Shown piece by piece: positions 35,256 through 58,773 of a DNA stretch of 64,000 bases. The DNA is taken from the NCBI GenBank assembly GCA_039794085.1, contig JBDIWC010000018.1:1-64000 (forward strand), read 5' to 3'. Within the stretch, counting starts at the first letter, position 1. Each line of letters opens with the position of its first letter. Both the position numbers and the translations under genes were made by a program. Below the pieces are notes generated by a model. It saw only the letters and a list, made by a program, of their open reading frames with translations, did not search any database and had not been told where the DNA came from. The stretch is from Gemmatimonadales bacterium (lineage in GTDB: Bacteria > Gemmatimonadota > Gemmatimonadetes > Gemmatimonadales > GWC2-71-9).

Positions 35256-35320
35256 TGACGCGGTCTAACTTGTTAATCGGTGGATGGGGACGTTACCACC
35301 GTCCAGATATGCCCGCAAGA
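35256..35320 (-). mobile_element. attI-like site and cassette start (G/TTAGACCGCGTCA)
   Basis: 13 of 14 bases form an inverted match with the cassette end TGACGCGGTCTTAC; CTTGCGG..TCTGG..ACCGAT shared with 58575-58650. Confidence 0.65.
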
Positions 35321-35352
35321 CAGGCCTCCGGTCCTTCCTCGGTGCCCGGAAC

Positions 35353-35430
35353 GTCCACCGGGCTTCGGACCACCAACCCACCCCGGTTGAGAACGGCGGT
35401 GGAGATCAGCGTGGTGCTCAGGTCGCTCCA
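35353..35430 (-). pseudogene. intI: Integron integrase C-terminal stub 2 (degenerate)
   Basis: WSDLSTTLISTAVLNRGGLVVRSPVD versus the IntI-type end HSDVSTTMIYTHVLNRGGxGVRSPLD; catalytic Tyr lost. Confidence 0.78.
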
Positions 35431-35554
35431 AGCGATCACAGATCGCCTCAGAGGGTGCGCCGCAAGCAGCGCACCCACGGGTTGACACCGTCACCTTGTA
35501 CGGGCCGTCTGCGAACCCCTCCCGCCCACCGCCCACCGCTGACCGCCTTTCGTT

Positions 35555-35654
35555 GCCACCTGGCGCTCGGGCGACGCGACCGCGTCGCCCCAAGGACGAC
35601 GCATGCGTCGCCCCTACACCTACTCCCTATTCCCTACTCCCTACTCCCTTTACT
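35555..35654. repeat. Two GTAG-type REP hairpins plus (CTCCCTA)n
   Basis: gggcgacgcgaccgcgtcgccc and gacgacgcatgcgtcgcccctac; homologous to 14050-14114. Confidence 0.85.
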
Positions 35655-35664
35655 TTCCCAACCC

Positions 35665-36144
35665 ATGCTCGATGCCATCATGACCTTCTTCCGGGGACAC
35701 CTCGCCGGGCCCGACACCCCCACGGCCGACCCCGACGACCCCACTCGCCTGCGGCAGGCCGCCTGTGCCCTCCTGGTCGAGCTGGCCTGGGCCGACGGCG
35801 GCTTTTCCGACACCGAACGGAGTCAGCTCACCCGGTCCCTCGAAACCCGCATGGGGCTCGACCCCGACACCGCGTCCGAGCTCATCGCCCTCGCCGAGGC
35901 CGAACGGCACACCGCGCACGATTACTACCAGTTCACCTCGCTCGTCGCCCAGCATTTCAGTGCCCGGGAAAAGCACCTCCTCCTCGAGGTGATGTGGGAA
36001 CTGATCCTCGCCGACGGCACCATCAGCCGCGCCGAGGATCATCTGATTCGCCGGGTGGCTCCCCTGCTCGGCCTCGAGACCCGCAGCGTGGCCGACGCCA
36101 AGGCCCGTGTGCTCCAACGCACTCCATCCCCTCCGGGAGAATGA
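35665..36144 (+). CDS. TerB-family protein
   Basis: ALLVELAWADG, YQFTSLV, MWELILADG..EDHLIRRVAPLLG. Confidence 0.85.
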   Translation: MLDAIMTFFRGHLAGPDTPTADPDDPTRLRQAACALLVELAWADGGFSDTERSQLTRSLETRMGLDPDTASELIALAEAERHTAHDYYQFTSLVAQHFSAREKHLLLEVMWELILADGTISRAEDHLIRRVAPLLGLETRSVADAKARVLQRTPSPPGE

Positions 36145-39100
36145 CCATGCTCCGTCCGCTCTTCGCCGTCTCCCTCCTGCTGTGCAGCACGACGGGACCG
36201 CTTGTGGCCCAGGATGAGGCGCCCGCCAGCCGGGGGGGACGAGCCCGGGAAAAGCCCCTCCCGCTGGAGGCGGCTCGATCGGCGCGCATCACCACCGATC
36301 AGGTCTCCTGGATGTCCCTCGACCTGAGCCCCGACGGCCAGACCCTCGTGTTCGACGCTCTCGGCGATCTCTACACCCTCCCCGTCACCGGTGACACCCC
36401 GACCCGCCTCACCTCCGGCCTCGCCTTCGACGGGCAGCCCCGGTTCAGCCCCGACGGAAAGCGGATCGTCTTCGTGTCCGACCGGAGCGGCGGGGACAAT
36501 GTCTGGATCATGTCCCTGGATGGCAAAGACACGGTGCAGGTCACCAAGGGGAACACCAACCAGTACCACTCCCCCGAGTGGACCCCCGATGGGGAATACA
36601 TCGTCGTCTCCCGCTCCGGCCAGGGGGGTGCCAAGCTCTATCTCTACCATGCCACCGGCGGATCGGGCGCCCGGCTCGGCGGGCAACCCGACAATGCCCG
36701 CAGCATCGGCGCGGCCTTCGGGCCCGATCCCCGGTACATCTGGTATGCCACCCGTACCGGCGACCATACCTACAACGCCGTGCTCCCCACCTATCAGCTT
36801 GGGCTTTACGACCGGGAAACCGGCACCCGCACCGCGATGACCTCGCGGCAGGGAGGGGGATTCCGGCCCGCGCTCTCGCCGGATGGGAAATGGCTCGCCT
36901 ACGGAAGCCGCCACGACTCCAACACCGGTCTCCGGCTCCGCGATCTCGCCACCGGCGACGAACGGTGGCTCGCCTTTCCCATTCAGCGGGATGACATCGA
37001 GTCCCGTGCCACCCAGGATGCCCTCCCCGGCTACACCTTCACACCCGACAGCCGGACCGTGATCATGAGCTACCATGGGCAGATCTGGCGGGTGCCGGTG
37101 GACGGTGCCGCCGCGACGCGCATCCCGTTCACGCTGGAGACGGAGGTGGCGATCGGGCCCGAGGTCCGCTTCGACTATCCGGTGGAGGACAGCGCCCAGT
37201 TCACCGTGCGCCAGATCCGCGATGCCGTGCCCTCGCCCGATGGCCGCCGGCTCGCCTTCTCCGCGCTGGGCAAGCTCTACGTGATGGACTGGCCTGCCGG
37301 TACCCCGCGGCGGCTCACCACTCTCCCCTACGAGGAGCACTACCCGGCCTGGTCGCCCGATGGCCGGGAGATCGCCTTCGTGACCTGGGCCGATTCCTCG
37401 GGCGGGCATCTCTACAAGGTGGCCTCCATCGGGAGTGCCCGTTCCACGCGACTCACCCGCACCGCGGGAGCATACGTCGAGACCGCGTGGTCGCCCGACG
37501 GCGCCCGGATCGTGTCGATCAAGTCCCCGGCGCGGGAGATGCGCGAGGAGCTGCAGCGCTTCTCGCCGGGACAGGGGGCCGAGTTCGTGTGGGTCCCCGC
37601 GGCCGGTGGCGAGCTGACGGTGATTGCCCAGACCCGCGGTCGGCGGGTGCCACATTTTACAAGGGATTCCACCCGGCTCTGGGCCTACAGCGGAGGGGGC
37701 GGGCTGGTGTCGATGCGATGGGATGGCACCGATGTGAAGGAGCATCTCAAGGTGACCGGTCAGTCCCAGCCCGGGTCCACCCAGGCGCCCCCCGCCGCGC
37801 TGATCCGCATGGCTCCCGTGGGTAATCAGGCGCTGGCTCAGGTCGGGATGGACATCTTTGTGGTGACGGTGCCGCTGGTCGGCGGGACGGTGCCGACGGT
37901 GTCGGTGGCCAACCCCGACAACGCGGCCTTCCCGGTGAAGAAGCTGACGGAGATCGGAGGCGAGTTCGCCCACTGGAGCGCCGACGGCCGGAAGGTGCAC
38001 TGGTCGATCGGGAACGCGCACCTGGTGTACGATCTCGACCGGGCGAAGGCGGTGGAGGACAGCGTGCGCGCCGCTCGGGCCACCCGCCCGGCCAACGACA
38101 GCACCGCCCGCCCGGCCAACGACACGACACGCGCCGGAGGGTACCAACCCGAGGAACGGCGCATCATCATCCGCGCGGCCCGCGACATTCCCCGCGGAAC
38201 GGTCGTGCTCCGGGGAGGTCGGGCCATCACGATGCGGGGGCGGGAGATCATTGAGAACGCCGACATCGTCGTCACCGACAATCGGATCGTGGCGGTCGGA
38301 GCCCGCGGCCAGGTGACCATTCCCGCCGGCGCCCGGGAGATCGACGTGACCGGAAAGATCATCCTCCCCGGCTTCGTCGACACCCATTCCCACCTGCGGC
38401 ACACGCCGGGCGTGCACAAGGATGCGCTCTGGGCGTATCTCGCCAACCTCGCCTATGGCGTCACCACCATGCGGGACCCCCAGACCGCCACCACCGACGT
38501 GCTCACCTACGCCGACCGGGTGGACGCCGGTACCCTCCTCGGTCCCCGGGTCTACTCGACGGGCCCCGGCGTCTTTGCCGGCGAGAACATCGAGAGTCTC
38601 GACCACGCGCGGAACGTGCTCAAGCGCTACAGCCAATACTACGACACCAAGACGCTGAAGATGTACATGACGGGGAATCGCCAGCAGCGGCAATGGGTGA
38701 TCATGGCGGCCCGCGAGCTCCAACTGATGCCCACCACCGAGGGGGGAATCGACTTCAAGCTGGAACTCACCCACGCGATGGACGGGTATGCGGGGCTGGA
38801 GCATTCGCTCCCCGTGGCCCCACTCTATCGCGACGTGGTGGAGCTGTTCAAGACGTCCAAGACGGCGTACACTCCGACCCTGCTCGTGTCGTACGGCGGG
38901 CCCTGGGCGGAGAACTACTACTATGCCACCGAGCAGCCGCACAATGATGCGAAGCTCCGGCGCTTCACTCCGGGGGACGAACTTGACGGGAAGACCCGCC
39001 GTCGCGGCGGGGGAACCTCCGCGGGGTGGTTCATGCCCGACGAGCATGTCTTCAACCGCCATGCCAACTTCGTGCGGGACCTGGTGGAAGTGGGGGGATG

Positions 39101-39470
39101 GGCCGGGGTCGGGAGCCACGGCCAGCTCCAGGGCTTGGGCTACCACTGGGAACTCTGGTCGGTGCAGTCCGGCGGAGCCACCCAATTCGACGCCCTTCGC
39201 ATGGCCACCATTCTCGGCGCCCAGGCACTCGGCTTCGGGAATGATCTGGGAAGTCTGGAACCGGGCAAGCTCGCCGACCTCCTGGTGCTCGACCGGGACC
39301 CAACCGAGAACATCCGGAACTCCAACTCGGTGCGGATGGTGATGAAGAATGGCCGCCTCTACGACGCGGACACCCTGAACCAGGTCTGGCCCACGGCGGT
39401 GCCCCTGCCGCCCCTCGGCTGGGGGCACGATGATCCGGATGTGAAGGCCGGGGTGGGCAGGCGGCCGTAG
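36141..39470 (+). CDS. Secreted amidohydrolase with N-terminal TolB/PD40 beta-propeller repeats
   Basis: Signal peptide; repeated SPDG motifs; PGFVDTHSH metal motif; GSLEPGKLADL. Confidence 0.9.
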   Translation: MTMLRPLFAVSLLLCSTTGPLVAQDEAPASRGGRAREKPLPLEAARSARITTDQVSWMSLDLSPDGQTLVFDALGDLYTLPVTGDTPTRLTSGLAFDGQPRFSPDGKRIVFVSDRSGGDNVWIMSLDGKDTVQVTKGNTNQYHSPEWTPDGEYIVVSRSGQGGAKLYLYHATGGSGARLGGQPDNARSIGAAFGPDPRYIWYATRTGDHTYNAVLPTYQLGLYDRETGTRTAMTSRQGGGFRPALSPDGKWLAYGSRHDSNTGLRLRDLATGDERWLAFPIQRDDIESRATQDALPGYTFTPDSRTVIMSYHGQIWRVPVDGAAATRIPFTLETEVAIGPEVRFDYPVEDSAQFTVRQIRDAVPSPDGRRLAFSALGKLYVMDWPAGTPRRLTTLPYEEHYPAWSPDGREIAFVTWADSSGGHLYKVASIGSARSTRLTRTAGAYVETAWSPDGARIVSIKSPAREMREELQRFSPGQGAEFVWVPAAGGELTVIAQTRGRRVPHFTRDSTRLWAYSGGGGLVSMRWDGTDVKEHLKVTGQSQPGSTQAPPAALIRMAPVGNQALAQVGMDIFVVTVPLVGGTVPTVSVANPDNAAFPVKKLTEIGGEFAHWSADGRKVHWSIGNAHLVYDLDRAKAVEDSVRAARATRPANDSTARPANDTTRAGGYQPEERRIIIRAARDIPRGTVVLRGGRAITMRGREIIENADIVVTDNRIVAVGARGQVTIPAGAREIDVTGKIILPGFVDTHSHLRHTPGVHKDALWAYLANLAYGVTTMRDPQTATTDVLTYADRVDAGTLLGPRVYSTGPGVFAGENIESLDHARNVLKRYSQYYDTKTLKMYMTGNRQQRQWVIMAARELQLMPTTEGGIDFKLELTHAMDGYAGLEHSLPVAPLYRDVVELFKTSKTAYTPTLLVSYGGPWAENYYYATEQPHNDAKLRRFTPGDELDGKTRRRGGGTSAGWFMPDEHVFNRHANFVRDLVEVGGWAGVGSHGQLQGLGYHWELWSVQSGGATQFDALRMATILGAQALGFGNDLGSLEPGKLADLLVLDRDPTENIRNSNSVRMVMKNGRLYDADTLNQVWPTAVPLPPLGWGHDDPDVKAGVGRRP

Positions 39471-39748
39471 TAGGGGCGGCCCGTGGCCGGGTGATCACCG
39501 GTCGTGACAGTGCAGGAATAGGGAGTAGGGAGTAGGGAAGGGGAGAGGGGGCGTGGAAGGGATCGGAACGTCACCCCGGCGAACGCCGGGGTCCATCGTG
39601 CGGGAGGTCGGGAATGACACTGGATTCATGGCCGGAATGACGGCCTCCCCGTCGTCTGTCCTCTGTCCTCTGTCCTCTGTCCTGGGTGTCGGAGCGGCAG
39701 GCGAGAGGGGCCCGATACCAATCACCCATTACCCATCACCCATTACCC
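39468..39748. repeat. Repeat mosaic: (TAGGGAG)n, REP doublet 39570-39641, (TGTCCTC)n, (CCCATYA)n
   Basis: Directly visible. Confidence 0.85.
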
Positions 39749-39758
39749 GAAACCCATC

Positions 39759-41672
39759 ATGACATCCCTCGGACGCAATCAGCCTTGTCCCTGCGGGTCA
39801 GGGAAGAAGTTCAAGAACTGTCACGGGCGGGAGGGGAATGCGAACCGGGGAGGGCTCTCCCTCATGCATGGGGGCGCAGCGTTGGACCGTCCGGGAGCTG
39901 ACCGGAGCAGCATTCCCTCCCCTGACCCCGATTCCCGGTGGGAGGTGGACCTCCTGCCCGCCCCCATCTCCATCGGAACCGCTCCCCACTCACGCGTCGC
40001 CTGTGTGTTGGTGATGGGTGACGGATTCATCCTCTTCAGTGATTTTCTCACCGACCCGCCCAGCGAGTCGGACGACGTGGCCCGGGTGTTGATTGAGGCG
40101 GTGGAAAAGGCATCGACACGAGTGGGACGGTGGCCACGTACGATCGCGGTCCGCCGTGAGGTGATCGCCCGGGAGTTGCGGCCACTCCTCGGGGAGCGAC
40201 ACACGAGCGTGACCACCACGCGGTTGCCGGAGGTGGACGAGGCGGGCCGTTCGCTGATGGCACACATGAACCCCGGATCTCCGGAACGCCCCTTGGGGCT
40301 CTCCATTCCCGACAGGTGGGGGTCCTGGGGTCTTCCGACGGCGTTGGTGGGGGAATTGTTTGCCGCCTCCGCCGCGTTCTTTCGGGATCGGCCGTGGGAG
40401 CGTCTGGTCAATGCCGATCTCATGATGGCGACGACCCCGGGGGGAACCTCCTGGACCATGATCGTGCTGGGAGGAGCCGGCATGGAGTACGGCGTGGCGC
40501 TGTACGCCGATCTGGCGGACCTGGAGAGCCAGCTGACCACCGAGAGCGCGGATCCCGGATGGGAGGATGTCGTCCTCTCCCTCACCTTCCTGCGCCGGAG
40601 CGATGTGTCCCCCGCCATGCGCAAGGAGGTCCTCGCCGCCGGATGGGAGGTGGCCGGGACCGATGCGTGGCCCTTCCTCATCACGGCCAACACCCCGGGC
40701 GGCGGAATCACCCGCGCCCAGGCAACCGACCTTCGGGACATCCTCCGCGCCCTGCCGGAGTTCTCCCGGTTTCTGGCGTCCGCCCGTGCCGAAGGAGCCG
40801 TCCCTCCCATTGTCTGGACCGACCCGGAGATGGGGGTCTCCCTGGTGCTGGAATCGGACGGGGAGGAACCGTCTCTCTGGCCTCCCCCGGTGGCACTCGA
40901 ACCGGCGCTCCCGACCGGATTGGGAGCCAACCCCGCCTCGGCGCTGCTGGTGCCGGAGGAAGGGACGTTGTCTCGGGATACGGAGGAACTCGTTGACCGA
41001 TTCCAGGAGTCGCTCAGCCTCCGGTTTTCGGCGGCGACGGCGTTCCGCCATGCGGACAACGCCGATCTCTTTCTCACCTATCTGTCGGATGCGGCGGGGA
41101 TTCCGGTCGAGGCGGTGACCGAATGCGACCTCATCATCTTTCTCTTCGACTGGGTGCATCGCACAGTGGTCTATCCCCCGGGAGAGATGCGGGCGATTCC
41201 CGTGTCCCTCAAACGCTTCTTCCATTTTCTGGAGACGGAACAGGAACTGCTGCTTCCCTGGGCGTGGAAGATCCTGGAGGATCGCGAGGCATTCGATATC
41301 CGGGCGGAGAGTTGCCCGGGCGGCGGGTTCGCTTTCCTGAACCCCGACCTGCAGGAATGGGTTGCGGACCTCGGAGTCGATTTGGCGGCGCGCGTCTTCC
41401 TGCCGAATCCCGCCATGGCGGATGGCGGGGTCTGGGGCGAGATGATGGAAGTGGAGGAAGCCACCCTGTTCCACGAGCTGAGACGCCGGTGGTTGATCTG
41501 GCGGGACGAGGTCATCGCCTCGGGTGTCACCAGTCCGGGGGAGGTGCGGGAGGAACTGGCCCGGCGCCAGGCAGCGTGGGAGCGGTCGCCCCATCCGCGG
41601 CACAAGGGCAGGACCCCCCTCCAGGTCGTGCACCGCGAGCGAAAGAGGTTGGGTGGTGAAGACAGATGGTAG
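39759..41672 (+). CDS. SEC-C motif protein with a C-terminal helical domain resembling recombinase core-binding domains
   Basis: GRNQPCPCGSGKKFKNCHG; ..SAATAFRHADNADLFLTYL..SLKRFFHFLE. Confidence 0.8.
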   Translation: MTSLGRNQPCPCGSGKKFKNCHGREGNANRGGLSLMHGGAALDRPGADRSSIPSPDPDSRWEVDLLPAPISIGTAPHSRVACVLVMGDGFILFSDFLTDPPSESDDVARVLIEAVEKASTRVGRWPRTIAVRREVIARELRPLLGERHTSVTTTRLPEVDEAGRSLMAHMNPGSPERPLGLSIPDRWGSWGLPTALVGELFAASAAFFRDRPWERLVNADLMMATTPGGTSWTMIVLGGAGMEYGVALYADLADLESQLTTESADPGWEDVVLSLTFLRRSDVSPAMRKEVLAAGWEVAGTDAWPFLITANTPGGGITRAQATDLRDILRALPEFSRFLASARAEGAVPPIVWTDPEMGVSLVLESDGEEPSLWPPPVALEPALPTGLGANPASALLVPEEGTLSRDTEELVDRFQESLSLRFSAATAFRHADNADLFLTYLSDAAGIPVEAVTECDLIIFLFDWVHRTVVYPPGEMRAIPVSLKRFFHFLETEQELLLPWAWKILEDREAFDIRAESCPGGGFAFLNPDLQEWVADLGVDLAARVFLPNPAMADGGVWGEMMEVEEATLFHELRRRWLIWRDEVIASGVTSPGEVREELARRQAAWERSPHPRHKGRTPLQVVHRERKRLGGEDRW

Positions 41673-41704
41673 GGGATAGGACTCCCTGCCCCGCCCCCCC
41701 CCGC

Positions 41705-41795
41705 GGGTGTTGGGTATCGGGTGTTGGGTATTGGGAACTACGGTGTGGGGCCCAATACCCAGTCCCCAGTCCCCAACACCCAGTCTCCAGCACCC
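41705..41795. repeat. Inverted heptamer array pair (TGGGTRT)n / (CCCARYM)n between convergent genes
   Basis: Can form a long imperfect hairpin; homologous to 321-391. Confidence 0.85.
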
Positions 41796-41801
41796 GGGAC
41801 C

Positions 41802-43541
41802 TCAGGGCACGAACAGCAGTCGATGCCCGAGCATCAGCCCGCCGAGCACCAGGGCCACCACGAGGGCCAGGGTGCCCAGTTCCCGACCAAGACCGGTCAG
41901 CCCCCGGACCACGCTGCGCCCGGGCCAGATCCCGGGTGCGTCCACGGTGCGGGCAAACTCCTCGGCGTGGGCTCGATTGGCTCCGGGTCCGAGAGCGATC
42001 GCGGCCAGGGTGACGAGGAGGCTTCCGGAAGCGATCCAGACGAGTTGCCGTTCGTAGGTCACGTCGAGCGCCGCCGTCACCGCGGCAAGGGTGAGGCCGG
42101 TCACCGCCCCCGTGAGTTCGGCAAAGGCGGTGACGCGCCACCAGAGCCACCGCAGGAGGGTCGGGGCGCCGAGGGCCGCGCCCAGAGCCGCCACCCAGGT
42201 CCACGCCTGTTCAATGGTCTCGATCTGCATCGCCACCAGCAGGGCAAGCACCGCGAATGCCACCACTGTCGCCCGGCCGAGGGTCACCTGGGTCCTCGGG
42301 GAGAGGCCGGGCCGGAGGCGCAGGAACACGTCGCTCACGGCGTAGGAGGCACCCCAGTTGAAGTGGGTGTCGATGGTGCTCATGAACGCGGCGAGGATAG
42401 AGACCACCAGGAGTCCGAGCACTCCTGGTGGGAGGAGTGCGATCATGAGGGCGGGCCAGGCCGCTTCCCGGTCGGCACGCACCGTGGCCGTGAGGTCCGG
42501 GGAGAGCTGGCTCACCGTGCCGTCCCCCAGGGGGATCAGGACCAGGGCGGCGACACCCACCACGAACCAGGGCCACACCCTCACCATATATTGCAGCGCG
42601 ACGAAGAGCCAGGCGGCACGCACTGCGTCGGTCTCGCTGCGGGAGGCGCTGAGGCGTTGCTGGAGATACCCCCCGCCATCCGCCGGGATGTTGGCGAATC
42701 CCTGCACCAGGAGGTACGCCCCGAGCGTGAACGCGCCGAGCCCGAGCGCGCCGGCCCAGCCGCCGTCCAGGGTGGGAAAGAGGCGGAGGAAGTCGGTGGA
42801 CTCCGGGCCGTAGAGAGTCCGCAGTTGGGTGTGGAGCGCGGTCCGTCCCCCCACCGCGCGCCAGGCGGCCACCGCGAGCCAGATGCCCCCCACCATCCCG
42901 AGCGCGAACTGGACCAGGTCGGTGCGGACGACGCCCCGGATGCCGCCCAGGGAGGAGTAGAGGGTGACGATGAGAACCAGCGCCAGGATGGTCAGGAATT
43001 CGCCGGGTCCGCCGAGAGCGCTCCCTTCGGGCACGAAGCGGGCGGCTGCGTGGGTCAGCCCGGGTGCCCACTGCTCCCAGGGCACCAGCGCGTGCGCGAT
43101 CTTTCCCATGGCCCGGAGCACCCACCCCAGGATGATCACGTTGTACACCAGGCCGTAGAGCCCCGCGCGGAATGTCCGCAGCGTCCCCGCCGCGGCATCG
43201 TCGTAGCGGCGGCTGATGAACTCGGCGTCGGTCACCACGTCGCTCCGCCACCAGCGCCGGGCAAAGACCGCCACCACCCCGGCATGCACCAGGATCCAGC
43301 TCAGCCAGAGCCAGTTGCCCGAGATGCCACGGGAGGCAATGATCCCTGCCACCACCAGGGGGGTGTCGGCGGCGAAGGTGGTGGCGGCGATCGACACCCC
43401 GGCCCACCACCAGGGGAGCGAGCGATCGGCGAGGAAGTAGCTCCGACGTCCGGTGGAACTCCCACCCCGCATCGCGACGCCCACGCCGAGGGCAAGGAAG
43501 AGATAGGCGCCGATGATCGCCCAGTCGACCGGATGCAGCAC
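41802..43541 (-). CDS. Sodium:solute symporter family protein
   Basis: YFLADRSLPWW, AATTFAADTPL, GGIRGVVRTD, AAFMST; many TM. Confidence 0.92.
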   Translation of the reverse strand: MLHPVDWAIIGAYLFLALGVGVAMRGGSSTGRRSYFLADRSLPWWWAGVSIAATTFAADTPLVVAGIIASRGISGNWLWLSWILVHAGVVAVFARRWWRSDVVTDAEFISRRYDDAAAGTLRTFRAGLYGLVYNVIILGWVLRAMGKIAHALVPWEQWAPGLTHAAARFVPEGSALGGPGEFLTILALVLIVTLYSSLGGIRGVVRTDLVQFALGMVGGIWLAVAAWRAVGGRTALHTQLRTLYGPESTDFLRLFPTLDGGWAGALGLGAFTLGAYLLVQGFANIPADGGGYLQQRLSASRSETDAVRAAWLFVALQYMVRVWPWFVVGVAALVLIPLGDGTVSQLSPDLTATVRADREAAWPALMIALLPPGVLGLLVVSILAAFMSTIDTHFNWGASYAVSDVFLRLRPGLSPRTQVTLGRATVVAFAVLALLVAMQIETIEQAWTWVAALGAALGAPTLLRWLWWRVTAFAELTGAVTGLTLAAVTAALDVTYERQLVWIASGSLLVTLAAIALGPGANRAHAEEFARTVDAPGIWPGRSVVRGLTGLGRELGTLALVVALVLGGLMLGHRLLFVP

Positions 43542-43544
43542 CGG

Positions 43545-50590: not shown

Positions 50591-50600
50591 GGATTCGGCG

Positions 50601-51824: not shown

Positions 51825-51840
51825 TCCGGCTCGACCCCAC

Positions 51841-51937
51841 GGAGCGAGGTTTGGATGCTCTCAGGGCGTCACCCCGGCGGACGCCGGGGTCCATTCGCTT
51901 CAATCCTCACCCGTGGAAAGGTGTCCCCGCGAAGCGG
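51841..51937. repeat. ~100-bp REP-containing unit (related copies at 52755-52850, 53549-53655, 58849-58903)
   Basis: GGATGCTCTC.GGGCGTCACCCCGGCGGACGCCGGGGTCCATTC.CTTCAATCCTCACCCG.GGAAAGGTGTCCCCGC. Confidence 0.88.
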
Positions 51938-51942
51938 GAAGC

Positions 51943-52036
51943 GACCTTCAGTATCGTGGCGAACTCCGGATTGCCATCCGGCGAGAGGGCCTTGGGGAGG
52001 CTCCCGTCCCAGTCCGCTCTTCCGGGCGATCTCCGT
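51943..52036 (-). pseudogene. Remnant of an HI1420-type addiction-module antidote gene
   Basis: TEIARKSGLGRE / (frameshift) LPKALSPDGNPEFATILKV; both ends missing. Confidence 0.78.
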
Positions 52037-52094
52037 GTCGATGATCCAGGTACACGAAGGGCTGGAGGAGGAAAACAGATTCCGGCGCACGCCG

Positions 52095-52664
52095 TCAGTC
52101 TGCCGGGCGCAGAATCGACGGGTCCCCGGGCCGCAACTCGGTACAGGCGTCGGACTCTACCGTCCACATCGCGTTGGACACGCGCCATCGTCCGTCGATC
52201 TTGACGAAGTCGAACACATCGACACCGCAATGGGTTGTCTCGCCGTCGACCCAGAACTCATACGGCGCCCACACCACGGCGATGCCACCACGGATCATCA
52301 CGGTCGGCGACCAGTACCGCTCCCGAAGGACGCGCCCATCGTCCCGGGAGGGATCTGTCCAAAAGGAGTTCGGGCGTGCCACGATCTCCATCCCGCCGCC
52401 TTCGGCCGGGCGCCAGATGCCGCTCTGGGAGTCCACCTCGAAAACCGGGCGCCACACGTAGGTCATTCCGTCCGGGGTCATCATCGCCGCCTGGGCTTCG
52501 CGATCGGACTCGGAGATCGCCGTGACGTAGCGGTCCAGTGCCTCGAGAACGGCCGCCTCCTCGCCCGGTTGGTGCCCTTCGGCGATGTGCGGCGTGGGGG
52601 GAGCGGAGGCTCCGCAGGCGGACAGGAAGGTCATCATTGCGATCAGGAACATGCTTCGCGTCAT
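52095..52664 (-). CDS. NTF2/SnoaL-like lipoprotein
   Basis: Lipobox LSAC; IAVVWAPYEFWVDG..HCGVDVFDFVKIDGRWRV; AGGAGG SD. Confidence 0.82.
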   Translation of the reverse strand: MTRSMFLIAMMTFLSACGASAPPTPHIAEGHQPGEEAAVLEALDRYVTAISESDREAQAAMMTPDGMTYVWRPVFEVDSQSGIWRPAEGGGMEIVARPNSFWTDPSRDDGRVLRERYWSPTVMIRGGIAVVWAPYEFWVDGETTHCGVDVFDFVKIDGRWRVSNAMWTVESDACTELRPGDPSILRPAD

Positions 52665-52869
52665 GTCATCCTCCTGGGTATCACAAGGGTGTCCTCGCTC
52701 GCCTGACGTCTCGCCATTCTGCTGCGCACACGTGTCGTGACCCACGATCTCCTTCAGGCGTCACCCCGGCGGACGCCGGGGTCCATCCCCGTCAATTTCA
52801 ATTTCAATTCAATCCTCGCCCCGGCGAGGTGTGGACCCCGGCCAAGTGGGAACCAGGGGCATTATCTCG

Positions 52870-53241
52870 CTAGCGAGCGTCACTCTCCCGTCTTGGAGAT
52901 AACGGATCCCGCGTCAGGACGAGAAGGGCGGATTCGGTGTTCGCTGCGAATGAAGACACTTCCTCCACTTTCGCGCGCAAGACAACCTCGACGTCAGCTG
53001 TCCGGCAATTCCCCAGGCGCACCCAGATCACTTTGGGTGGGGATCCGCGAAGGAAGCTGAACTGGCGAAAGTCATCATCCTTCGTGACGATCATGAATTC
53101 TCCCGTTCGGGCGTACTGCCACACGAGTTCGTCGTCACCCACGGCAAGTCCGAGATCGCGCACGTGCGCGGAGTCCGGATACAGGTCGCCCAGTCGACGG
53201 ACGAGCGTCGGCGAGAGATTTTGATCGAAGAGGAGCTTCAG
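52870..53241 (-). CDS. DUF5615 PIN-like toxin; CTG start
   Basis: (M)KLLFDQNLS..SAHVRDLGL..IVTKDDDF..PPKVIWVRLGN; in-frame stop 7 codons upstream. Confidence 0.85.
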   Translation of the reverse strand: MKLLFDQNLSPTLVRRLGDLYPDSAHVRDLGLAVGDDELVWQYARTGEFMIVTKDDDFRQFSFLRGSPPKVIWVRLGNCRTADVEVVLRAKVEEVSSFAANTESALLVLTRDPLSPRRESDAR

Positions 53242-53262
53242 GTTGGGCCGCCTTGAGCCTCG

Positions 53263-53487
53263 TTACGCCGCCGGACCCACGAGTCGTCGCTCACGGTCCG
53301 CAGCAAAGGCAAGCGCCGCGTGTATGTCCTCGCGCTCCAGATCCGGGAAGTCGGCCAGGATCTCGTCCGTGCTCATGCCTCCGGCCAGGTAGTCGAGAAT
53401 GTCATACACCGTGATACGCAGGCCACGGATGCAAGGCTTGCCGCTGCGCTTGCCAGGTTCGATGGTGATCCGGTCGCGGTAGTCCAT
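53263..53487 (-). CDS. DUF433 antitoxin
   Basis: ITIEPGKRSGKPCIRGLRITVYDILDYLAGG..EILADFPDL. Confidence 0.92.
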   Translation of the reverse strand: MDYRDRITIEPGKRSGKPCIRGLRITVYDILDYLAGGMSTDEILADFPDLEREDIHAALAFAADRERRLVGPAA

Positions 53488-53687
53488 ACTTTCAGCATAG
53501 TCTCTGAAGGGGTGAGCCGCAAGCTGCCGGCTCCGAGACCCCCTGGGTGTCACCCCCGCGCACGCCGCCGGAGTCCATTCCCTTCAATCCTCACCCGAGG
53601 AAAAGGTGTCCCCGCAAAGCGAGGTGTGGCTCGGATGCTCTCCGGGCGTCCCCCCTGCCAAGCTTGTCCCTGGAAAGGCGGGGAGAG

Positions 53688-54833
53688 TTAACGGCCGATC
53701 CGCCCGCGCACGATGTATGGGATACCGTCCCGGTCGCGTGCTGCCAGCCATACCACGTTATCCCGAGTGACCGGACGCACCCAGGAGATGATCGCATGCG
53801 GGATGCGCACTTCGGCGATCGCCTCGCCGCCGGCCGAATAGATCTCGAAGAGAGAGGTTTCGTCGGCGGTGCCGCGCCGGACCCAGAGACGAGTGTCATC
53901 ATCGACGAAGGCGCTCTGGATCACCGGTTTGACGGTCGGGATCCGGCTCCAGTCCGGGTCCGGTTCGTTCAGGGACGCCAGGAACTTGCGTATGCCTGCG
54001 ATCGCGGAATCGCGTTCCGCCGGGGTGACGGGGAAGGGGGTGGTCCCGCGGTGGATGCGCGCCCCCGTATCGTGCTGCTCGATGCCGAGCTTGAACAGCC
54101 GGTACTCGGCCCCGGTCGGCGCGCACCAGACGGCGCCGCTGGTCCAGTCGAAGGCGAGGACAGGTCCCGGATAGAAGGGAATATTCACGGAGTACCGGGC
54201 TCCACCGCGGCCACCTTCCAGGGGCTTCCAGTAGCTGCCGTCTCCGGTTGTCCACCCAGGAGGCCGGCACGCGGGGAGCGAGACCGTATCGATACGGCTC
54301 CAGTCCGGCTCTGCTCGCCGAAGGGTGCGTTTCGGCTCGTCGCCCTCTATGCGCCCGAAGACCTCGTCCCAGATTCGGCCGGTCCGGTCTATTCCTCCGG
54401 TCCAGACCCAGCCATAACCCTGGGCTGGAGCGATCTGCTGCGTGAGGAAGTCGCCCGTCTCGCTGAAAAGGGAGAATCGGCCGTTTTGCGGATCATGCAC
54501 CCAGACCACACCATCGGGCGCCAAAGCCATCCCGTCAGGCCAGAGAAACTCTCCGGGTCCCTGACCTCGCCGTCCGATTGTGCGCAGCGGTTTTCCGAGA
54601 GAGTCAAACACCCGAATGTTCTGGGTCGAAGCCTCCAGCGCCCAGATGTTGCCGCTCCGCGTGACGAGAACCCCTTTGAGATCGCTGAGTCCGTCGGGAT
54701 CGTCTGCGCCGCCCCCAATTCGGAAGTCCTCGACGAAGTGCCACTCCCCAAGGACAGCCGGGTCCGCAGGGGAGGTGCAGGCGGGGAAGGTGGCGAGGAT
54801 CGAAAGCAGTGCCAACTTGTTCGTGGTGGCCAT
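53688..54833 (-). CDS. 6-bladed beta-propeller (NHL-like) exported protein
   Basis: IRVFDSLGKPLRTIGRRGQGPGEF repeat motif; N-terminal signal ending in Cys. Confidence 0.82.
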   Translation of the reverse strand: MATTNKLALLSILATFPACTSPADPAVLGEWHFVEDFRIGGGADDPDGLSDLKGVLVTRSGNIWALEASTQNIRVFDSLGKPLRTIGRRGQGPGEFLWPDGMALAPDGVVWVHDPQNGRFSLFSETGDFLTQQIAPAQGYGWVWTGGIDRTGRIWDEVFGRIEGDEPKRTLRRAEPDWSRIDTVSLPACRPPGWTTGDGSYWKPLEGGRGGARYSVNIPFYPGPVLAFDWTSGAVWCAPTGAEYRLFKLGIEQHDTGARIHRGTTPFPVTPAERDSAIAGIRKFLASLNEPDPDWSRIPTVKPVIQSAFVDDDTRLWVRRGTADETSLFEIYSAGGEAIAEVRIPHAIISWVRPVTRDNVVWLAARDRDGIPYIVRGRIGR

Positions 54834-54902
54834 GGAACCTGCTGGATTTGGGGTTCCGCCAGTGCAGAGGGGTAGCCAAAGGATGGTCCCCTCAGGGGCA
54901 CA

Positions 54903-54975
54903 ACCGAACACCTCGGTGCCCACTATTCTGCAGGTCGATCACACCTTCCGCAAGATTACCCGGAACAGTGCCCGA
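54903..54975 (-). mobile_element. Third attI-like segment
   Basis: + strand TATwCTGCA-N14-TCCGCAAG..CCC.GAACA.TGC collinear with 58598-58648; minus-strand ACCGA-N3-GTTCGGT core. Confidence 0.5.
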
Positions 54976-55029
54976 ACTCCGCCACCACCCTGCGCGTCTC
55001 TCCAGCCCATCCCCCCGGACTCCGGGCTC

Positions 55030-55470
55030 TCAATCCCCTCGCTCGGTCGCTGCGCGATGCCAACGCTCCACGCGCAGGCCGTGAAAGGGCTCGAAGTCTC
55101 GAACGTTGTCCGTGACCAGGATGAGGCCATTGACCGCGGCGACAGCGGCGATCTGGCCGTCGGCGAACGCGGGTGTCTGTCCGGCCTTGGTGAGCCGGGC
55201 GCGCTGCGCAGCATGCCATTCCGCAGCGACCGCGTCATAAGGCAGGATCGGGAGTGCAGCGGAGACGACCTCGGCCAGGTATCGCTCAATCGCCGCGCGC
55301 TTTCGAGAGGGGCGGAGCAGCCCGACGCCGAAAGCCAGCTCGTGCCAGACGATGGAGGCTGTGGCGAGTTCACCGCCGCGCTCCCGCAGCTTGTTGACGA
55401 CCGCCTCGTCCGGCTCCTTGCGCACCGGCTCGGAGAGGACATTGGTGTCGACCAAATAGCGAGGCGTCAC
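55030..55470 (-). CDS. vapC: VapC (PIN) toxin
   Basis: YLVDTNVLSE, ELAFG, DGQIAAVA, LVTDNVRDF; GTGA overlap with the antitoxin. Confidence 0.92.
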   Translation of the reverse strand: MTPRYLVDTNVLSEPVRKEPDEAVVNKLRERGGELATASIVWHELAFGVGLLRPSRKRAAIERYLAEVVSAALPILPYDAVAAEWHAAQRARLTKAGQTPAFADGQIAAVAAVNGLILVTDNVRDFEPFHGLRVERWHRAATERGD

Positions 55471-55748
55471 CACCGAGGTTCCCGCCCGGTCCCGCGGTCA
55501 CGCAGATTCTCAAGCTCACCCTGATCGAGCTGAATCTCAGGCATCTCCACCTGCTCGAGGAGGGCGTCAAGCGCCACCCCGAATGAAGGGCGCCCGTGCG
55601 CCAACTGCTGGTAGCGCGCCGCCGAGACCAGGACTGCCACGGGTGTCCCCCACCGCGTGATCTGGACGGCCGCGCCCTCCTCGGCTTCCTTCACCAGACC
55701 GGGTAGCCTTGCCCGAGCTTCGGCGATCGATACGCTATGTTCCGCCAT
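55467..55748 (-). CDS. Phd/YefM-family antitoxin
   Basis: SIAEARARLPGLVKEAEEG..ITRWGTPVAVLVS; GGAGG SD. Confidence 0.9.
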   Translation of the reverse strand: MAEHSVSIAEARARLPGLVKEAEEGAAVQITRWGTPVAVLVSAARYQQLAHGRPSFGVALDALLEQVEMPEIQLDQGELENLRDRGTGREPRW

Positions 55749-55757
55749 GTTACCTCC

Positions 55758-55806
55758 ATGTACATCTTTATGTACATAGAATAGCATTACCGGTGCTCAC
55801 GCGCAA
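55758..55806 (-). promoter_or_regulatory. Sigma70-type promoter (TTGCGC-17-TATTCT) with tandem ATGTACAT operators
   Basis: ATGTACAT at 55758-55765 and 55770-55777; TGTACA is the known core of Phd/YefM operators. Confidence 0.8.
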
Positions 55807-55875
55807 GTCCTCGGATCCGCTTCCGGGCGGTAATGCCCTCCGGGCAGGGGTTCAGGACGCCTATCGCGTCCAGCC

Positions 55876-55978
55876 ACATAACGTCTCGCGTTTCGGTGGC
55901 GCGACAAGGGTGTCCCCCGAGCGCCGCCGGCGCGAGCCCACTCGCTCAGATCGCGGCAACAGCACACGCATGTTGGGC
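55876..55978 (-). mobile_element. Integron attC site
   Basis: Minus strand GCCCAAC atgcgtgtgctg ... ccgaaacgcgagac GTTATGT. Confidence 0.75.
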
Positions 55979-56007
55979 AGCACCGTTGTCGGGAATCGAG
56001 CGAACGG

Positions 56008-56508
56008 TCAATGACCGCCACGTCGTGGGATGTAGCTCCCGTTCTCATCGAATGGCTGCGCATCACGGTGGAACCTGATCTGGCGCCACCACTCGCGTCT
56101 CGTCGCAGCACGGTCGTGAAGCGGACGGAGACTCGCTCCGGCTCCTCGCCTTTCAGCTGGAACTCTCCGGTGAAGAAGCCCCAGGCAAGCCCCACTCCGA
56201 TGTCCACGGATGACTCAATCTCATCAATCGTGATTCGGTAGTACTCGACAGCAGCCAGAAAGCGGTTGATGATCTTCAGCTCCTCGGCTCTCGACTGAAA
56301 CGCCCGATGAGGCTTGGTCCGCTGCCACCACGGTGGCGGCGACCGCCCCGCTGGGGCGCGCGGCGTACAGCGCCTGTTGGGCAGCGCTCATCCGTGCAAC
56401 ATCTTCGGGCGTGGCGGTCACGTCGCTCAGATAGGCAAGGCAGCCGAGCAGATTCCAAAGGAGGGCCACGATGGTAACCGGCAGGTACCACCGCGGCACT
56501 GTCTCCAC
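56008..56508 (-). pseudogene. Chimeric remnant: 5' part of a membrane protein joined to the frameshifted 3' part of a SnoaL/NTF2-like gene
   Basis: VETVPRWYLPVTIVALLWNLLG.. breaks near 56330; another frame reads ..GLAWGFFTGEF..VRFTTVLRRDASG/WRQIRFHRD with 1 nt missing near 56088. Confidence 0.65.
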
Positions 56509-56629
56509 AGCCCACTCCTTCGTTCCGGTGATGGCACCCGAGCCGCTCCACTCCGCCGATCGCAGCACCGCTCATCGAGCGCAACCCCCGAACGGGCGTG
56601 AACCATTCGATTGCCCCACACGATCTCCA

Positions 56630-57367
56630 TCAGCGTCCTCGAATGAGAAACAACAGCCCTGCCGCCGTCATCGTCAACTCGATGAGGAACACGAACACAT
56701 GTTCCGGAAGCCGATCGACGATCCGCTTCCCTGTCCAAGACCCGACAATCATTAGTGGACCGATTGCGAGACCCGCAAGAATGCTCTCCATCGGGAGCAC
56801 GGCCGCGCCGCGGTAGGCGACAAGCTTCGTAACGTGCATCACGACTGTGGAGAGCGCCTCGGTGCCGATATATGCACACTTCACCAACCCGTAGGCGAGG
56901 AAGAACGGTGCCATGAGCGGTCCCACGCTTCCCAACAGCGCCGAGAGGAAGCTTCCGCCGGCCCCGATGAGCGCGAATGATCGCAGGGTGGGTCGTACGG
57001 TCGTTCGGGGTCCCAGCCTCCGCCAAGCCACGATGAGCAAGAGAAAAAGGCCAAGCAGGCGCGTCAGACCCTCAAGTGGTGCCCGTGCAAAGAGCAGACC
57101 GCCAAGCAGTGCCAGGGGAACGCCGCCCACTGCAAACCAGCCCACCACTCGATAGTCAAGCTCGTGCCGGTTGAACCATACGCGGCTGGCGTTACCGGTG
57201 AGTTGCGCGACTGTCAGTATCGGCACCGCGTCGCGTACGCCGAAGGCGATGACAAGCACGGGGAGCAGCACGACCGCCTCACCGAAGCCTGTCACTGCGG
57301 CGAGCGTGGACGCAAGCAGGGCAACGGCGCCGACAAGTAGTGAAGCTCCGAGGTCAATATGCGGCAT
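56630..57367 (-). CDS. Sulfite exporter TauE/SafE family protein (cassette)
   Basis: AVTGFG, GSVGPL, multiple TM; the ATG lies within the attC R' (GTTATGC). Confidence 0.88.
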   Translation of the reverse strand: MPHIDLGASLLVGAVALLASTLAAVTGFGEAVVLLPVLVIAFGVRDAVPILTVAQLTGNASRVWFNRHELDYRVVGWFAVGGVPLALLGGLLFARAPLEGLTRLLGLFLLLIVAWRRLGPRTTVRPTLRSFALIGAGGSFLSALLGSVGPLMAPFFLAYGLVKCAYIGTEALSTVVMHVTKLVAYRGAAVLPMESILAGLAIGPLMIVGSWTGKRIVDRLPEHVFVFLIELTMTAAGLLFLIRGR

Positions 57368-57439
57368 AACCGCGTATGAGTTCAGCGGCAACACAGGCGC
57401 GAATGCGCCTGTGTTGTCATCTGCAATGAGGGGTTAGGC
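57364..57439 (-). mobile_element. Integron attC site
   Basis: GCCTAAC ccctcattgcag..caacacaggcgcattcgcgcctgtgttg..ctgaactcatacgcg GTTATGC. Confidence 0.9.
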
Positions 57440-57487
57440 GGTCAGTCACGAATGCAGGTGGGAAGAAGAGTTGGCCACATGCTCGTG

Positions 57488-57934
57488 TCACACACCAAAC
57501 TGTACGAGGTGGTGGTCGAGGTGCTTCCAGCAAAGCTGCCCCCACTCCTGCGGTGAGAGCGGGCCGAAGGTGGGGTGTACAGCACTGGCGGTGCCGCGGC
57601 CGACGCGCTCAGTGAGTTCAATGCACGCCGAGAGGTCGGCGTCCCAATCCGTTGGTTGCGAGACCAGCATCTCCGGTGCGGTCATGATCTTGCCACGAGG
57701 AGGCCTGATGCCCGTGTTGACCACGAGGAACTTGAGGAAGGTGCGTGAAGCCAGCGTGTGAGCCGGTGCTGTCGGAACGTCGCCCAGCGCAACGCGCAGT
57801 TGATCCGCGACGTGGCAGAGCATGCGTGGTGCGTTGAGGGTGCCCCACGCCGCCTGTGCGTCAGGAGTGAGACGTCGCAGTCGCTCGAGGATGAGTGCGC
57901 GGTCTTCTTCTGCCAACAGGGTGCGGAGTGCCAC
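57488..57934 (-). CDS. DinB-like / DUF1569 protein (cassette)
   Basis: RLTPDAQAAWG..MLCH..HPTFGPLS..W..KHLDHHLVQFGV. Confidence 0.88.
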   Translation of the reverse strand: MALRTLLAEEDRALILERLRRLTPDAQAAWGTLNAPRMLCHVADQLRVALGDVPTAPAHTLASRTFLKFLVVNTGIRPPRGKIMTAPEMLVSQPTDWDADLSACIELTERVGRGTASAVHPTFGPLSPQEWGQLCWKHLDHHLVQFGV

Positions 57935-57950
57935 GAGGTTCTCCCTGGAC

Positions 57951-58010
57951 GCCTAGCTTTCCGATTCATCGGCGGCGCGTAGCGTCGTCCGCTGCAACAG
58001 GTTGTTAGCT
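57951..58010 (-). mobile_element. Integron attC site (R' reads GCTAGGC)
   Basis: AGCTAAC aacctgttgcagcggacgacgctacgcgccgccgatgaatcggaaa GCTAGGC. Confidence 0.88.
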
Positions 58011-58021
58011 GGCCGTTCCCT

Positions 58022-58504
58022 TCATTTGCCGGCCACGACGATATCAGCCTTAGTCGAACCAACGATGTCAAGAAGCTCCTGAGTCTCCTTCGCTGGGACG
58101 CGATGCTTCGCGAGCACCTCTTTGAAGATGGTCACCATCCGCTCCCACTCCCGTTCCGCGATGTTCAAGTGGGTGTGAGCCTCCTTCATCCCGCGACCCT
58201 GGTACTGGCAAGGGCCGCCAGTGGCTTGGCACACCATGGCCGTCACGTGGTACTTCAGATAGGGCGCTGGCACACGCTTCCTCGTGGCATCGATCGCAGG
58301 ATTCGCATTGAGGACGGCGTCCGGCACAAGGGCATCGATAAAATCGCTCACCACGACCGAAAGCGGCGCAAGGCCACCAAGCCGGTCGTAGAGGGATTGC
58401 TGTTTCTGCCCTGGCTGGCCCTGCGCGAGTGCCGAGTGGAACCCTCCTACCACAAGGGCGACGACTACAAGACCCATCCAGGGTTTCGTGCTGCGCGTGA
58501 ACAT
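58022..58504 (-). CDS. Group I truncated hemoglobin with a signal peptide (first cassette)
   Basis: SLYDRLGG, ATGGPCQYQGRGMKEAH.LNI; AAGGAGG SD. Confidence 0.9.
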   Translation of the reverse strand: MFTRSTKPWMGLVVVALVVGGFHSALAQGQPGQKQQSLYDRLGGLAPLSVVVSDFIDALVPDAVLNANPAIDATRKRVPAPYLKYHVTAMVCQATGGPCQYQGRGMKEAHTHLNIAEREWERMVTIFKEVLAKHRVPAKETQELLDIVGSTKADIVVAGK

Positions 58505-58574
58505 AGTTGACCTCCTTCTGCCTGTCGGGGGTGTGTCGCCCCCCGTGGCTTCGTTGTCACGTGGCCCCGCCGCA

Positions 58575-58650
58575 GGCCAGCTGAGTTATCGGTTTCAAGT
58601 ATACTGCACCAGAATTGCGCCATCCGCAAGGTAATCCCAGAACACTGCGG
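58575..58650 (-). mobile_element. attI-like region and first-cassette boundary
   Basis: Cassette start CTCAGCTGGCC mirrors its attC end GGCCAGCTAAC (8-bp match); motifs shared with 35256-35320 and 54903-54975. Confidence 0.6.
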
Positions 58651-58677
58651 GGGGGGCATGATCCCCCGGAACCTTCA

Positions 58678-58773
58678 TCACATACCCCCCAGAGCGTCTG
58701 CAGGGCTCCGAACCCCCCGGCCCCCCCGGTTCAGCACGTGCGTGTAGATCATCGTGGTCCGGACATCCGAGTA
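58678..58773 (-). pseudogene. intI: Integron integrase C-terminal stub 1
   Basis: YSDVRTTMIYTHVLNRGGRGVRSPADALGGM*, the characteristic IntI C-terminus; no integrase sequence recognisable upstream. Confidence 0.92.

What the first reader, a model, noticed from the sequence alone, without database searches (positions are those of the whole stretch)
35256..58773. Multi-copy 'intI tail + attI' modules: a possible dispersed, non-autonomous cassette-capture system
Seen: two loci 23 kb apart each keep only the IntI C-terminus, breaking at the same position (the residue before SDV/SDL), co-oriented with downstream cassettes. Each is followed by a related segment (CTTGCGG..TCTGG..ACCGAT) and then a cassette start, and each has a REP module within ~100-140 bp upstream. 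A third copy of the segment lies at 54903-54975. Established: most integrons have intI divergent from the array; co-oriented arrangements and integrase-free attC clusters are known. Inference: the shared breakpoint suggests that a ~200-bp tail+attI unit is itself propagated and loaded in trans by an integrase elsewhere. This is the best candidate for an undescribed system in the window.
Basis: partly seen in the sequence, partly recalled or inferred. Interest (0 to 1): 0.85.

Follow-up and report, generated by a model that had tools for sequence, protein, structure and literature searches.

The report
Eroded integrons keep promoter and attI
These are leftovers of two different chromosomal gene-capture devices (integrons) whose recombinase genes are mostly deleted, with the attachment site and a predicted promoter left behind; they are not copies of one mobile module, although about 20 such leftovers in one genome is a lot.

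Summary
The stubs are real, but they are not copies of one module. Stub B is 95% identical to the tail of an intact intI at the orthologous position in a congener, so it decayed in place. The A and B spacers are unrelated (z=0.2) and come from different integron lineages. The third copy is related to B only. What they share is a sigma70-like promoter (TTGCGG-N17-[T/C]AnnnT) plus an attI core. The genome, probably Gemmatimonadota, holds 20 such sites in four families, with staggered 5' ends and no intact intI in the assembly. B's core is mutated (GTT to CTC). Best reading: co-oriented integrons multiplied, then intI eroded from the 5' side. The predicted promoter lies downstream of intI, so the cassettes would stay expressed. 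Remnants are common across the family, with no nucleotide-precise shared end among 37. One relative has a duplicated truncated unit ending at the core with different downstream genes, so limited spread and loading in trans are not excluded. The scan noted a similar decayed co-oriented remnant in another genome (e1-3563976). Mostly known decay; modest interest.

The parts
35353..35427 (-). Stub A: degenerate 3' end of intI (family F3), catalytic Tyr codon changed to Ser
   Evidence: orthologous stub already degenerate in congener G001:C230
35290..35318 (-). Predicted cassette promoter of site A (-35 TTGCGG, 17-nt spacer, -10 TAACGT)
   Evidence: not found by the stricter E. coli consensus scan
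35263..35281 (-). attI simple site of A (L box, 5-nt spacer, intact core GTTAGAC)
34378..35238 (-). First cassette gene at A: Mrr-type restriction endonuclease (60% GC)
   Evidence: Pfam Mrr_N and Mrr_cat, PADLOC mREase_IV, GC; no match in G001 or G002
34242..34373 (-). attC of the Mrr cassette, decayed (R'' GTCTTAC; fold z=-1.3)
35453..35617 (.). REP-like repeats upstream of A (24-bp palindrome and GTAG-type repeat)
   Evidence: the palindrome is also upstream of the orthologous stub in G001
58678..58783 (-). Stub B: 3' end of intI (family F4), 95% identical to the tail of the intact orthologous intI of G001:C149
58601..58629 (-). Predicted cassette promoter of site B (-35 TTGCGG, 17-nt spacer, -10 CAGTAT)
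   Evidence: not found by the stricter consensus scan
58579..58593 (-). attI simple site of B; core reads CTCAGCT where the congener has GTTAGGC (predicted impaired)
   Evidence: first-base matching rule from the abstract of PMC2811028
58022..58504 (-). Cassette 1 gene: bacterial-like globin; its attC 57951-58010 is decayed (R' GCTAGGC)
57488..57934 (-). Cassette 2 gene: DUF1569; its attC 57364-57439 folds well (z=-4.5)
56630..57394 (-). Cassette 3 gene: TauE/SafE exporter; no clear attC behind it
55876..55978 (-). attC after a broken, unassigned ORF region (about 56011-56568)
55030..55806 (-). Phd/YefM-PIN toxin-antitoxin cassette with its own promoter-like site; attC cut after the left arm; the same cassette lies in another array in G001 (C8)
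54903..55024 (-). Third site (family F4): a few codons of intI tail (55003-55024), promoter-like site 54925-54953, core GTTCGGT 54903-54909; orthologous in G001 with the same downstream gene
53688..54923 (-). Beta-propeller gene behind the third site (ORF call; the true start is probably later); no attC found; 92% identical in G001
58872..58903 (.). CGTC-type REP upstream of B (same family at 51864, 52760, 53549)
59058..59504 (-). Orphan 148-aa ORF lying where the congener has intI and its upstream region
   Evidence: no Pfam or PADLOC match
59594..60544 (-). DUF72 gene, conserved flank; adjacent to ispH in the distant congener G002, where the island is missing

Best explanation
A and B are remnants of two different co-oriented chromosomal integrons whose intI genes are deleted except for the 3' end, and they likely persist because the predicted cassette promoter and attI lie downstream of intI, so erosion from the 5' side would leave the cassettes expressed. 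Steps. (1) Shown: intI is co-oriented with its cassettes in this lineage. (2) Shown by pattern, function predicted: a sigma70-type promoter sits between the intI stop and the attI core. (3) Inferred: whole intI-promoter-attI platforms multiplied, by repeated acquisition of four lineages and by local tandem duplication inside arrays. (4) Shown at B and C22: intI was then deleted in place; the staggered, piecemeal ends elsewhere fit the same process. (5) Inferred: selection keeps the promoter, often in front of toxin-antitoxin or restriction genes, while attI cores and attC sites decay. The arrays are probably frozen unless an IntI arrives in trans.
For: Intact intI (TIGR02249 positions 1-315, 447 bits) at the position orthologous to B in G001:C149, with an 88% identical tail-plus-attI stretch. 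G001:C154 is the intact ortholog of the C22 copy, which has a 73-bp deletion with 4-bp microhomology. Tail-block 5' ends in G000 lie at model positions 242, 569, 657, 672, 693, 785, 836 and 859, and several sites have almost no tail. N-terminal intI pieces survive at six G000 loci (C22, C8a, C8c, C14a, C14b, C11c) and at 9 of 37 family remnants, so those sites once held a whole gene. 23 of 29 sites (G000 plus congeners) fit the strict promoter pattern against 0.088 per kb genome-wide, and the -10 T is invariant across four families that otherwise do not align. 9 of 20 intact relatives have the pattern downstream of intI, against 2 of 60 windows inside intI (p=3e-5). In family F4 the boxes are 85% identical and the spacer 64%. 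By eye, the core GTT is lost at 9 of 20 G000 sites, and 7 of those 9 keep the strict promoter pattern. attC left arms lie downstream on the same strand in 12 of 20 relatives and upstream on the opposite strand in 0 of 20. Tandem copies in the C14, C33 and window-B clusters, and three of the four in C8, are of one family.
Against: Promoter function is untested. I picked the -35 anchors by eye, and the strict E. coli consensus scan found none at A or B. For sites with no upstream intI trace (C2, C29, C33, C38) descent from a whole integron is not shown, and the C38, C29, C33b-d and C2 sites are missing at the orthologous place in G001. 22 of 37 family remnants end within model positions 839-894, a cluster that erosion plus detection bias explains only by argument. 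G061 holds two copies with the same 5' end, a shared ~80-bp non-intI leader, different flanks and different genes after the core. 11 of 20 G000 cores are intact. The assembly is 94.7% complete and could hide an intact intI.
Confidence: 0.72

Rival explanations
1. Satellite entry sites: promoter-attI units without intI are duplicated or carried as attI-type composite cassettes, and are loaded in trans by an IntI encoded elsewhere (a weaker form of the first reader's idea, without a fixed breakpoint).
For: G061 C57 and C178 share a ~376-bp unit at 85% identity, with the same 5' end, homology stopping at the core, and different flanks and payloads. G000 C33a and C33c share 217 bp ending about 3 nt before the core and carry different toxin-antitoxin pairs. 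G001 has an intI-less F4 site with an intact core and a precisely joined first cassette. Promoter-attI directly follows an attC core in G002:C210 and G001:C149. The same cassette lies in different arrays in the two congeners (Phd-PIN, and the C14b first cassette). The C8 duplicate arrays end in the same flank at the attC crossover but hold different cassettes. In class 1 and 2 integrons, delta-attI cassettes are mobile and IntI1 acts on attI2 fragments (PMC12901181, abstract and first part of Discussion).
Against: A and B are unrelated and B decayed in place. No intact intI was found in the G000 or G061 assemblies. The different payload at orthologous C33a looks like a plain deletion with no attC. 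The third window site has the same downstream gene in G001. B's core is mutated. No family breakpoint occurs more than twice in 37. Every payload difference could predate the loss of intI.
Confidence: 0.22
2. REP-driven mobility: REP repeats and a RAYT-type transposase move or delimit the stubs.
For: REPs lie within 200 bp upstream of 4 of 21 sites against a 4.8% intergenic background (p=0.016). The genome has 6 Y1_Tnp matches and a RAYT-like ORF upstream of the C22 intI (family assigned by eye). A partial CGTC repeat that the pattern missed lies upstream of C29.
Against: The patterns were built from A and B. Without them it is 2 of 19 (p=0.23). A and B have different REP families, 17 of 21 sites have none, and the CGTC pattern alone has 197 matches against about 25 in shuffled sequence.
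Confidence: 0.04
3. Assembly artefact: repeated intI copies collapsed or were mis-joined in a metagenome assembly, which created false stubs.
For: G000 is a 115-contig assembly; one contig of run X1 breaks at 58723-58781.
Against: A contig of run X4 spans 58649-58880, across the B junction (low depth, and possibly the source sample). Stub A is degenerate and present in a second species. Remnants differ by 5-35% and carry their own internal deletions.
Confidence: 0.02

Closest known systems
Reverse (co-oriented, 'inverted-integrase') chromosomal integrons, e.g. Treponema denticola (PMC7691350, passages; PMC4889954, passages)
   Same: intI is transcribed in the same direction as the array; attI and a putative Pc lie downstream of intI; cassettes have R''/R' cores.
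   Different: Here intI is reduced to fragments, and there are 20 sites of four lineages in one genome instead of one integron.
intI pseudogenes ('pseudo-integrons', PMC2426708, passages) and inactivated Xanthomonas integrons (bioRxiv 10.1101/2025.06.18.660453, passages)
   Same: intI is lost by deletion or frameshift; some pseudogenes arise by duplication within the genome; arrays are left frozen.
   Different: Higher copy number; polar erosion down to a few codons or none; retained promoter-like boxes.
CALINs (PMC4889954, passages) and SALINs/attG insertions (bioRxiv 10.1101/2022.09.11.507474, abstract and section headings)
   Same: attC arrays or single cassettes without an intact integrase; mobilisation in trans has been proposed.
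   Different: These keep a recognisable attI, a promoter-like site and often an intI stub. Only 15 of 279 CALINs had a nearby intI pseudogene in that survey, which could not search for unknown attI sites.
delta-attI-type unusual cassettes of class 1 and 2 integrons (PMC12901181, abstract and Discussion part 1 of 2); class 2 integrons with truncated intI2* and Pc2 in attI2 (PMC8876359, figure-legend passage)
   Same: attI pieces up to 238 bp lie inside arrays in place of attC; a dead integrase can sit beside a promoter-bearing attI.
   Different: Those are mobile resistance integrons with tested activity. Here the internal copies carry an intI tail and a whole promoter-attI, and nothing is tested.

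Membership tests
Complete integron | Intact intI next to the array | tested here: not met
   Only stubs at A and B; no full-length IntI in the assembly
Complete integron | attI with GTT core at the first-cassette junction | tested here: inconclusive
   A: core intact, 11 of 12 match to R''. B: homologous to the attI of an intact integron but core CTC. No recombination assay.
Complete integron | Cassettes bounded by attC | tested here: met
   Four attC sites with R''/L''/R' in the window; only 1 of 4 folds better than shuffles
Complete integron | Pc promoter driving cassettes | tested here: inconclusive
   Pattern conserved at 23 of 29 sites; strict consensus scan empty at A and B; no RNA data
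Reverse (co-oriented) integron lineage | intI co-oriented with cassettes, attI at its 3' side | tested here: met
   A, B, the G000 remnants and the congeners; 12 of 20 relatives downstream vs 0 of 20 canonical
Reverse (co-oriented) integron lineage | Parent gene is a true IntI | tested here: met
   Orthologous G001:C149 gene matches TIGR02249 over positions 1-315, above the cut-off; B tail 95% identical to it. A's parent is inferred only (71% to G002:C210).
CALIN | [quoted passage not shown] | tested here: met
   B array has three attC sites; A has one only, which is SALIN-like
   A vs B tail 67%, spacers z=0.2
   Staggered ends in G000; 37 family remnants span 441-894, none more than twice; one exception pair in G061
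   None in the 94.7%-complete assembly; congeners have one or two
   Needs an attI x attC assay
delta-attI-type cassette | attI piece in place of attC downstream of an ORF inside an array | tested here: inconclusive
   The third site follows the Phd-PIN cassette, whose attC is cut after the left arm (p=0.015); mobility untested

The most novel reading that the evidence does not exclude
In lineages with co-oriented integrons, promoter-attI units that have lost intI act as satellite cassette-entry sites. They are copied to new places, sometimes as attI-bounded composite cassettes, and are loaded by any visiting or resident IntI. A genome would then run a distributed integron of about 20 entry points that integron finders cannot see.
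Probability: 0.22. Interest if true: 0.65.

Novelty: new member of a known kind. Interest (0 to 1): 0.3.

Why it matters
As decay, it is a clear case of how co-oriented integrons lose their engine but keep their cargo expressed. It also supplies four attI families with promoter-like sites that can be tested, and attI is unknown for most integrons. Surveys that look for intI or attC would miss most of these sites. If loading in trans were shown, the unit of integron biology in these phyla would be a genome-wide set of entry sites, not one locus.

Tried and rejected
Rfam scan of the window: three chance-level matches. Idea that remnants generally start right after an attC left arm: 1 clear and 2 borderline (p=0.015; one of these probably chance) of 33 junctions, so not general. 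Idea that A's homology extends to the FATHLLE box: rejected, that stretch is a palindromic repeat. Two home-made attC finders were too strict or too noisy and were replaced by hand-anchored sites and a left-arm matrix. Idea of a secondary GTT site in the intI tail as a common breakpoint: two remnants start at model position 841, but by eye one is an internal deletion. Weak attI-family hits on C104 and C26 (E 0.19, 0.14) were dropped; the weak C22:60986 hit (E 0.033) was kept. Metagenome scan with a 20-base A motif: two hits, both by eye inside unrelated coding sequence. The orthologous C33a site looked like a trans-insertion but resolves as a deletion. F2 attI was not found in G001 or G002. 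The protein atlas did not give the lineage. No look-alike earlier findings for 53.3-60.5 kb. Rows dropped from the family count: of 45 loci, 5 near-intact genes, 2 at contig edges and 1 rearranged.
Full report
OBSERVATION. Both stubs are in the sequence, on the minus strand, upstream of same-strand cassettes. B keeps a near-perfect IntI C-terminus. A is degenerate, with Ser at the position of the catalytic Tyr (role of the residue recalled). At A the core GTTAGAC matches the R'' of an Mrr cassette at 11 of 12 bases. At B the globin cassette start matches its R'' at 9 of 12, but the triplet reads CTC. The abstract of PMC2811028 says the first base must match between partner sites, so B is predicted to be impaired with G-type attC. 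Only 1 of 4 window attC sites folds better than shuffles.

NOT ONE MODULE. The segments behind A and B do not align better than shuffles (z=0.2). B and the third copy do (z=7-8). The tails are 67% identical to each other, while B is 95% identical to an intact congener gene. Profiles built from 14 seed sites found 6 more, giving 20 sites in four families: F1 (C22, C8 x3), F2 (C11, C14 x2, C8, C45, and a weak one on C22), F3 (A, C2, C29) and F4 (B, third copy, C38, C33 x4). The 5' ends of the tail blocks are staggered (model nt 242, 569, 657, 672, 693, 785, 836, 859). Several sites keep only a few codons or none (read by eye). Six loci also keep N-terminal pieces. No intact intI was found. The best copy (C22) has a 73-bp frameshifting deletion with 4-bp microhomology and a 1-nt insertion near the end. 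The assembly is 94.7% complete, so absence is not proven.

SYNTENY. Congener G001 (about 90% identical DNA) has an intact intI (TIGR02249 1-315) exactly where B lies. Its flank matches window 59569-63991, and its tail plus attI match 58586-58783 at 88%, with the core GTTAGGC and a different first cassette, by eye a restriction-modification pair. In G000 about 790 bp of other DNA (an orphan ORF and a REP) stands in place of the gene. G001:C154 is likewise the intact ortholog of C22. Stub A is already degenerate at the orthologous site in G001, with the same upstream palindrome. G001 has a second, longer tail behind it, and both of its attI sites look broken. The third site is orthologous in G001 with the same downstream gene. 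In G002, ispH adjoins DUF72 and the 51.8-59.6 kb island is missing. Against a purely in-place story, the C38, C29, C33b-d and C2 sites are missing at the matching places in G001; gain or loss cannot be told apart.

WHAT IS RETAINED. 23 of 29 sites fit a strict pattern whose genome-wide rate is 0.088 per kb. Between families the -10 A and T are 85% and 100% identical while most spacer positions are 15-42% (I chose the -35 anchors by eye, so their conservation is partly built in). In 20 relatives with intact intI the pattern lies downstream of the gene in 9, and in 2 of 60 windows inside it. The stricter E. coli consensus scan finds nothing at A or B. By eye, the core GTT is intact at 11 of 20 G000 sites and lost at 9, and 7 of those 9 keep the strict promoter pattern. 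First cassettes are often toxin-antitoxin or restriction genes (mostly named by eye outside the window). In a co-oriented integron the promoter lies after intI, so deleting intI would cost the cassettes nothing (inference).

BREADTH. The best host-gene matches among 80 named loci are Gemmatimonadales and Gemmatimonadaceae records at 63-81% amino-acid identity, with one unnamed record on top, so the genome is probably Gemmatimonadota. Co-orientation is the rule: attC arms lie downstream in 12 of 20 relatives and in the canonical place in 0 of 20. An IntI-tail profile gave 8 matches in G000, the most of 121 genomes, then 7 and 6 (counts include weak Xer-type hits, and only 68 of 129 candidates were scored for G000). 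I examined 45 loci chosen for short frames or partial hits. 37 were internal remnants with 5' ends from 441 to 894, 22 of them in 839-894, no value more than twice, and 9 with upstream intI pieces. The cluster is expected if erosion runs towards the retained part and shorter stubs escape the profile, but that is argument. Paralogues in one genome mostly end at different places (10 sets compared).

EVIDENCE FOR THE BOLDER READING. In G061 two of seven copies share a 376-bp unit, including about 80 bp of non-intI leader, at unrelated flanks. Homology stops at the core and the downstream genes differ; G061 also shows no intact intI. G000 C33a and C33c share 217 bp up to the core and differ after it. 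In G002:C210 and G001:C149 a promoter-attI unit directly follows an attC core. Two cassettes lie in different arrays in the two congeners, and duplicated C8 arrays share a flank from the crossover on but hold different cassettes. None of this dates the loading to after intI loss, and the one orthologous test that looked decisive resolved as a deletion.

REP. 4 of 21 sites have a REP within 200 bp against 4.8% background. Without A and B, from which the patterns were built, it is 2 of 19 (p=0.23).

KNOWN CONTEXT. Reverse integrons with attI and Pc after intI are described in Treponema (PMC7691350, passages). About a third of intI genes are pseudogenes, some from duplication (PMC2426708, passages). 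CALINs, their origin by intI loss and their possible use in trans are described (PMC4889954, PMC8618304 and bioRxiv 10.1101/2025.06.18.660453; passages). attI fragments inside arrays are known and mobile in class 1 and 2 integrons (PMC12901181, abstract and first part of Discussion). The crossover position and GNT secondary sites are from PMC3518468 (passages); attG insertion from bioRxiv 10.1101/2022.09.11.507474 (abstract). Nine full-text searches showed no paper on many dispersed promoter-attI remnants in Gemmatimonadota. The library lacks most subscription papers, one search returned mostly unrelated papers, and I read no supplements.

VERDICT. These are decayed co-oriented integrons at unusually high copy number, with promoter-like sites retained (confidence 0.72). 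Limited spread and loading in trans of truncated units remain open (0.22). Interest 0.3.

Noticed in passing
G000:C8:35903-36338 and 39537-39974: About 430 bp of an AMP-binding ligase-like 3' end is duplicated (about 91% identical). Both copies start exactly at an attC crossover and close two arrays with different cassettes.
   Followed up: partly
L052:2925-3700 (G002:C210): A toxin-antitoxin cassette sits between an intact intI stop and the F3 promoter-attI, with the same 7-mer on both sides. This may be an insertion at a secondary site that separates intI from its attI.
   Followed up: partly
L214 and L217 (G061:C57, C178): Two 376-bp stub-spacer-core units share their 5' end and a non-intI leader at unrelated flanks; five more copies of the family are in that genome. 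This is the best lead for real propagation.
   Followed up: partly
L001:496-1035 (G000:C22:55074-55613): A RAYT-like tyrosine transposase ORF (named by eye) with tandem GTAG-type repeats lies upstream of the C22 intI, followed by a further degenerate recombinase tail with no attI.
   Followed up: no
window 53517-53522, 55778-55806: Toxin-antitoxin operons carry the same TTGCG-N17-TAnnnT promoter pattern, which suggests it is the housekeeping promoter of this organism.
   Followed up: partly
window 59058-59504: Orphan 148-aa ORF with no Pfam or PADLOC match, standing where the congener has intI.
   Followed up: no
window 30785-31659: DUF6932 gene followed by an HTH gene, a toxin-antitoxin-like pair conserved in G001.
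   Followed up: no
window 35580-35660 and 59570-59600: Short tandem heptamer runs next to the REP modules; similar runs recur at many places in G001.
   Followed up: no
G140:C338, C399, C152; G061:C108: 290-316-aa recombinases match TIGR02249 in two blocks with a gap near the IntI-specific insertion; possibly the insertion-less relatives noted in other findings.
   Followed up: no
G000:C11:39839 and G001:C215: intI remnants are interrupted by insertion-sequence-like DNA (read by eye).
   Followed up: no
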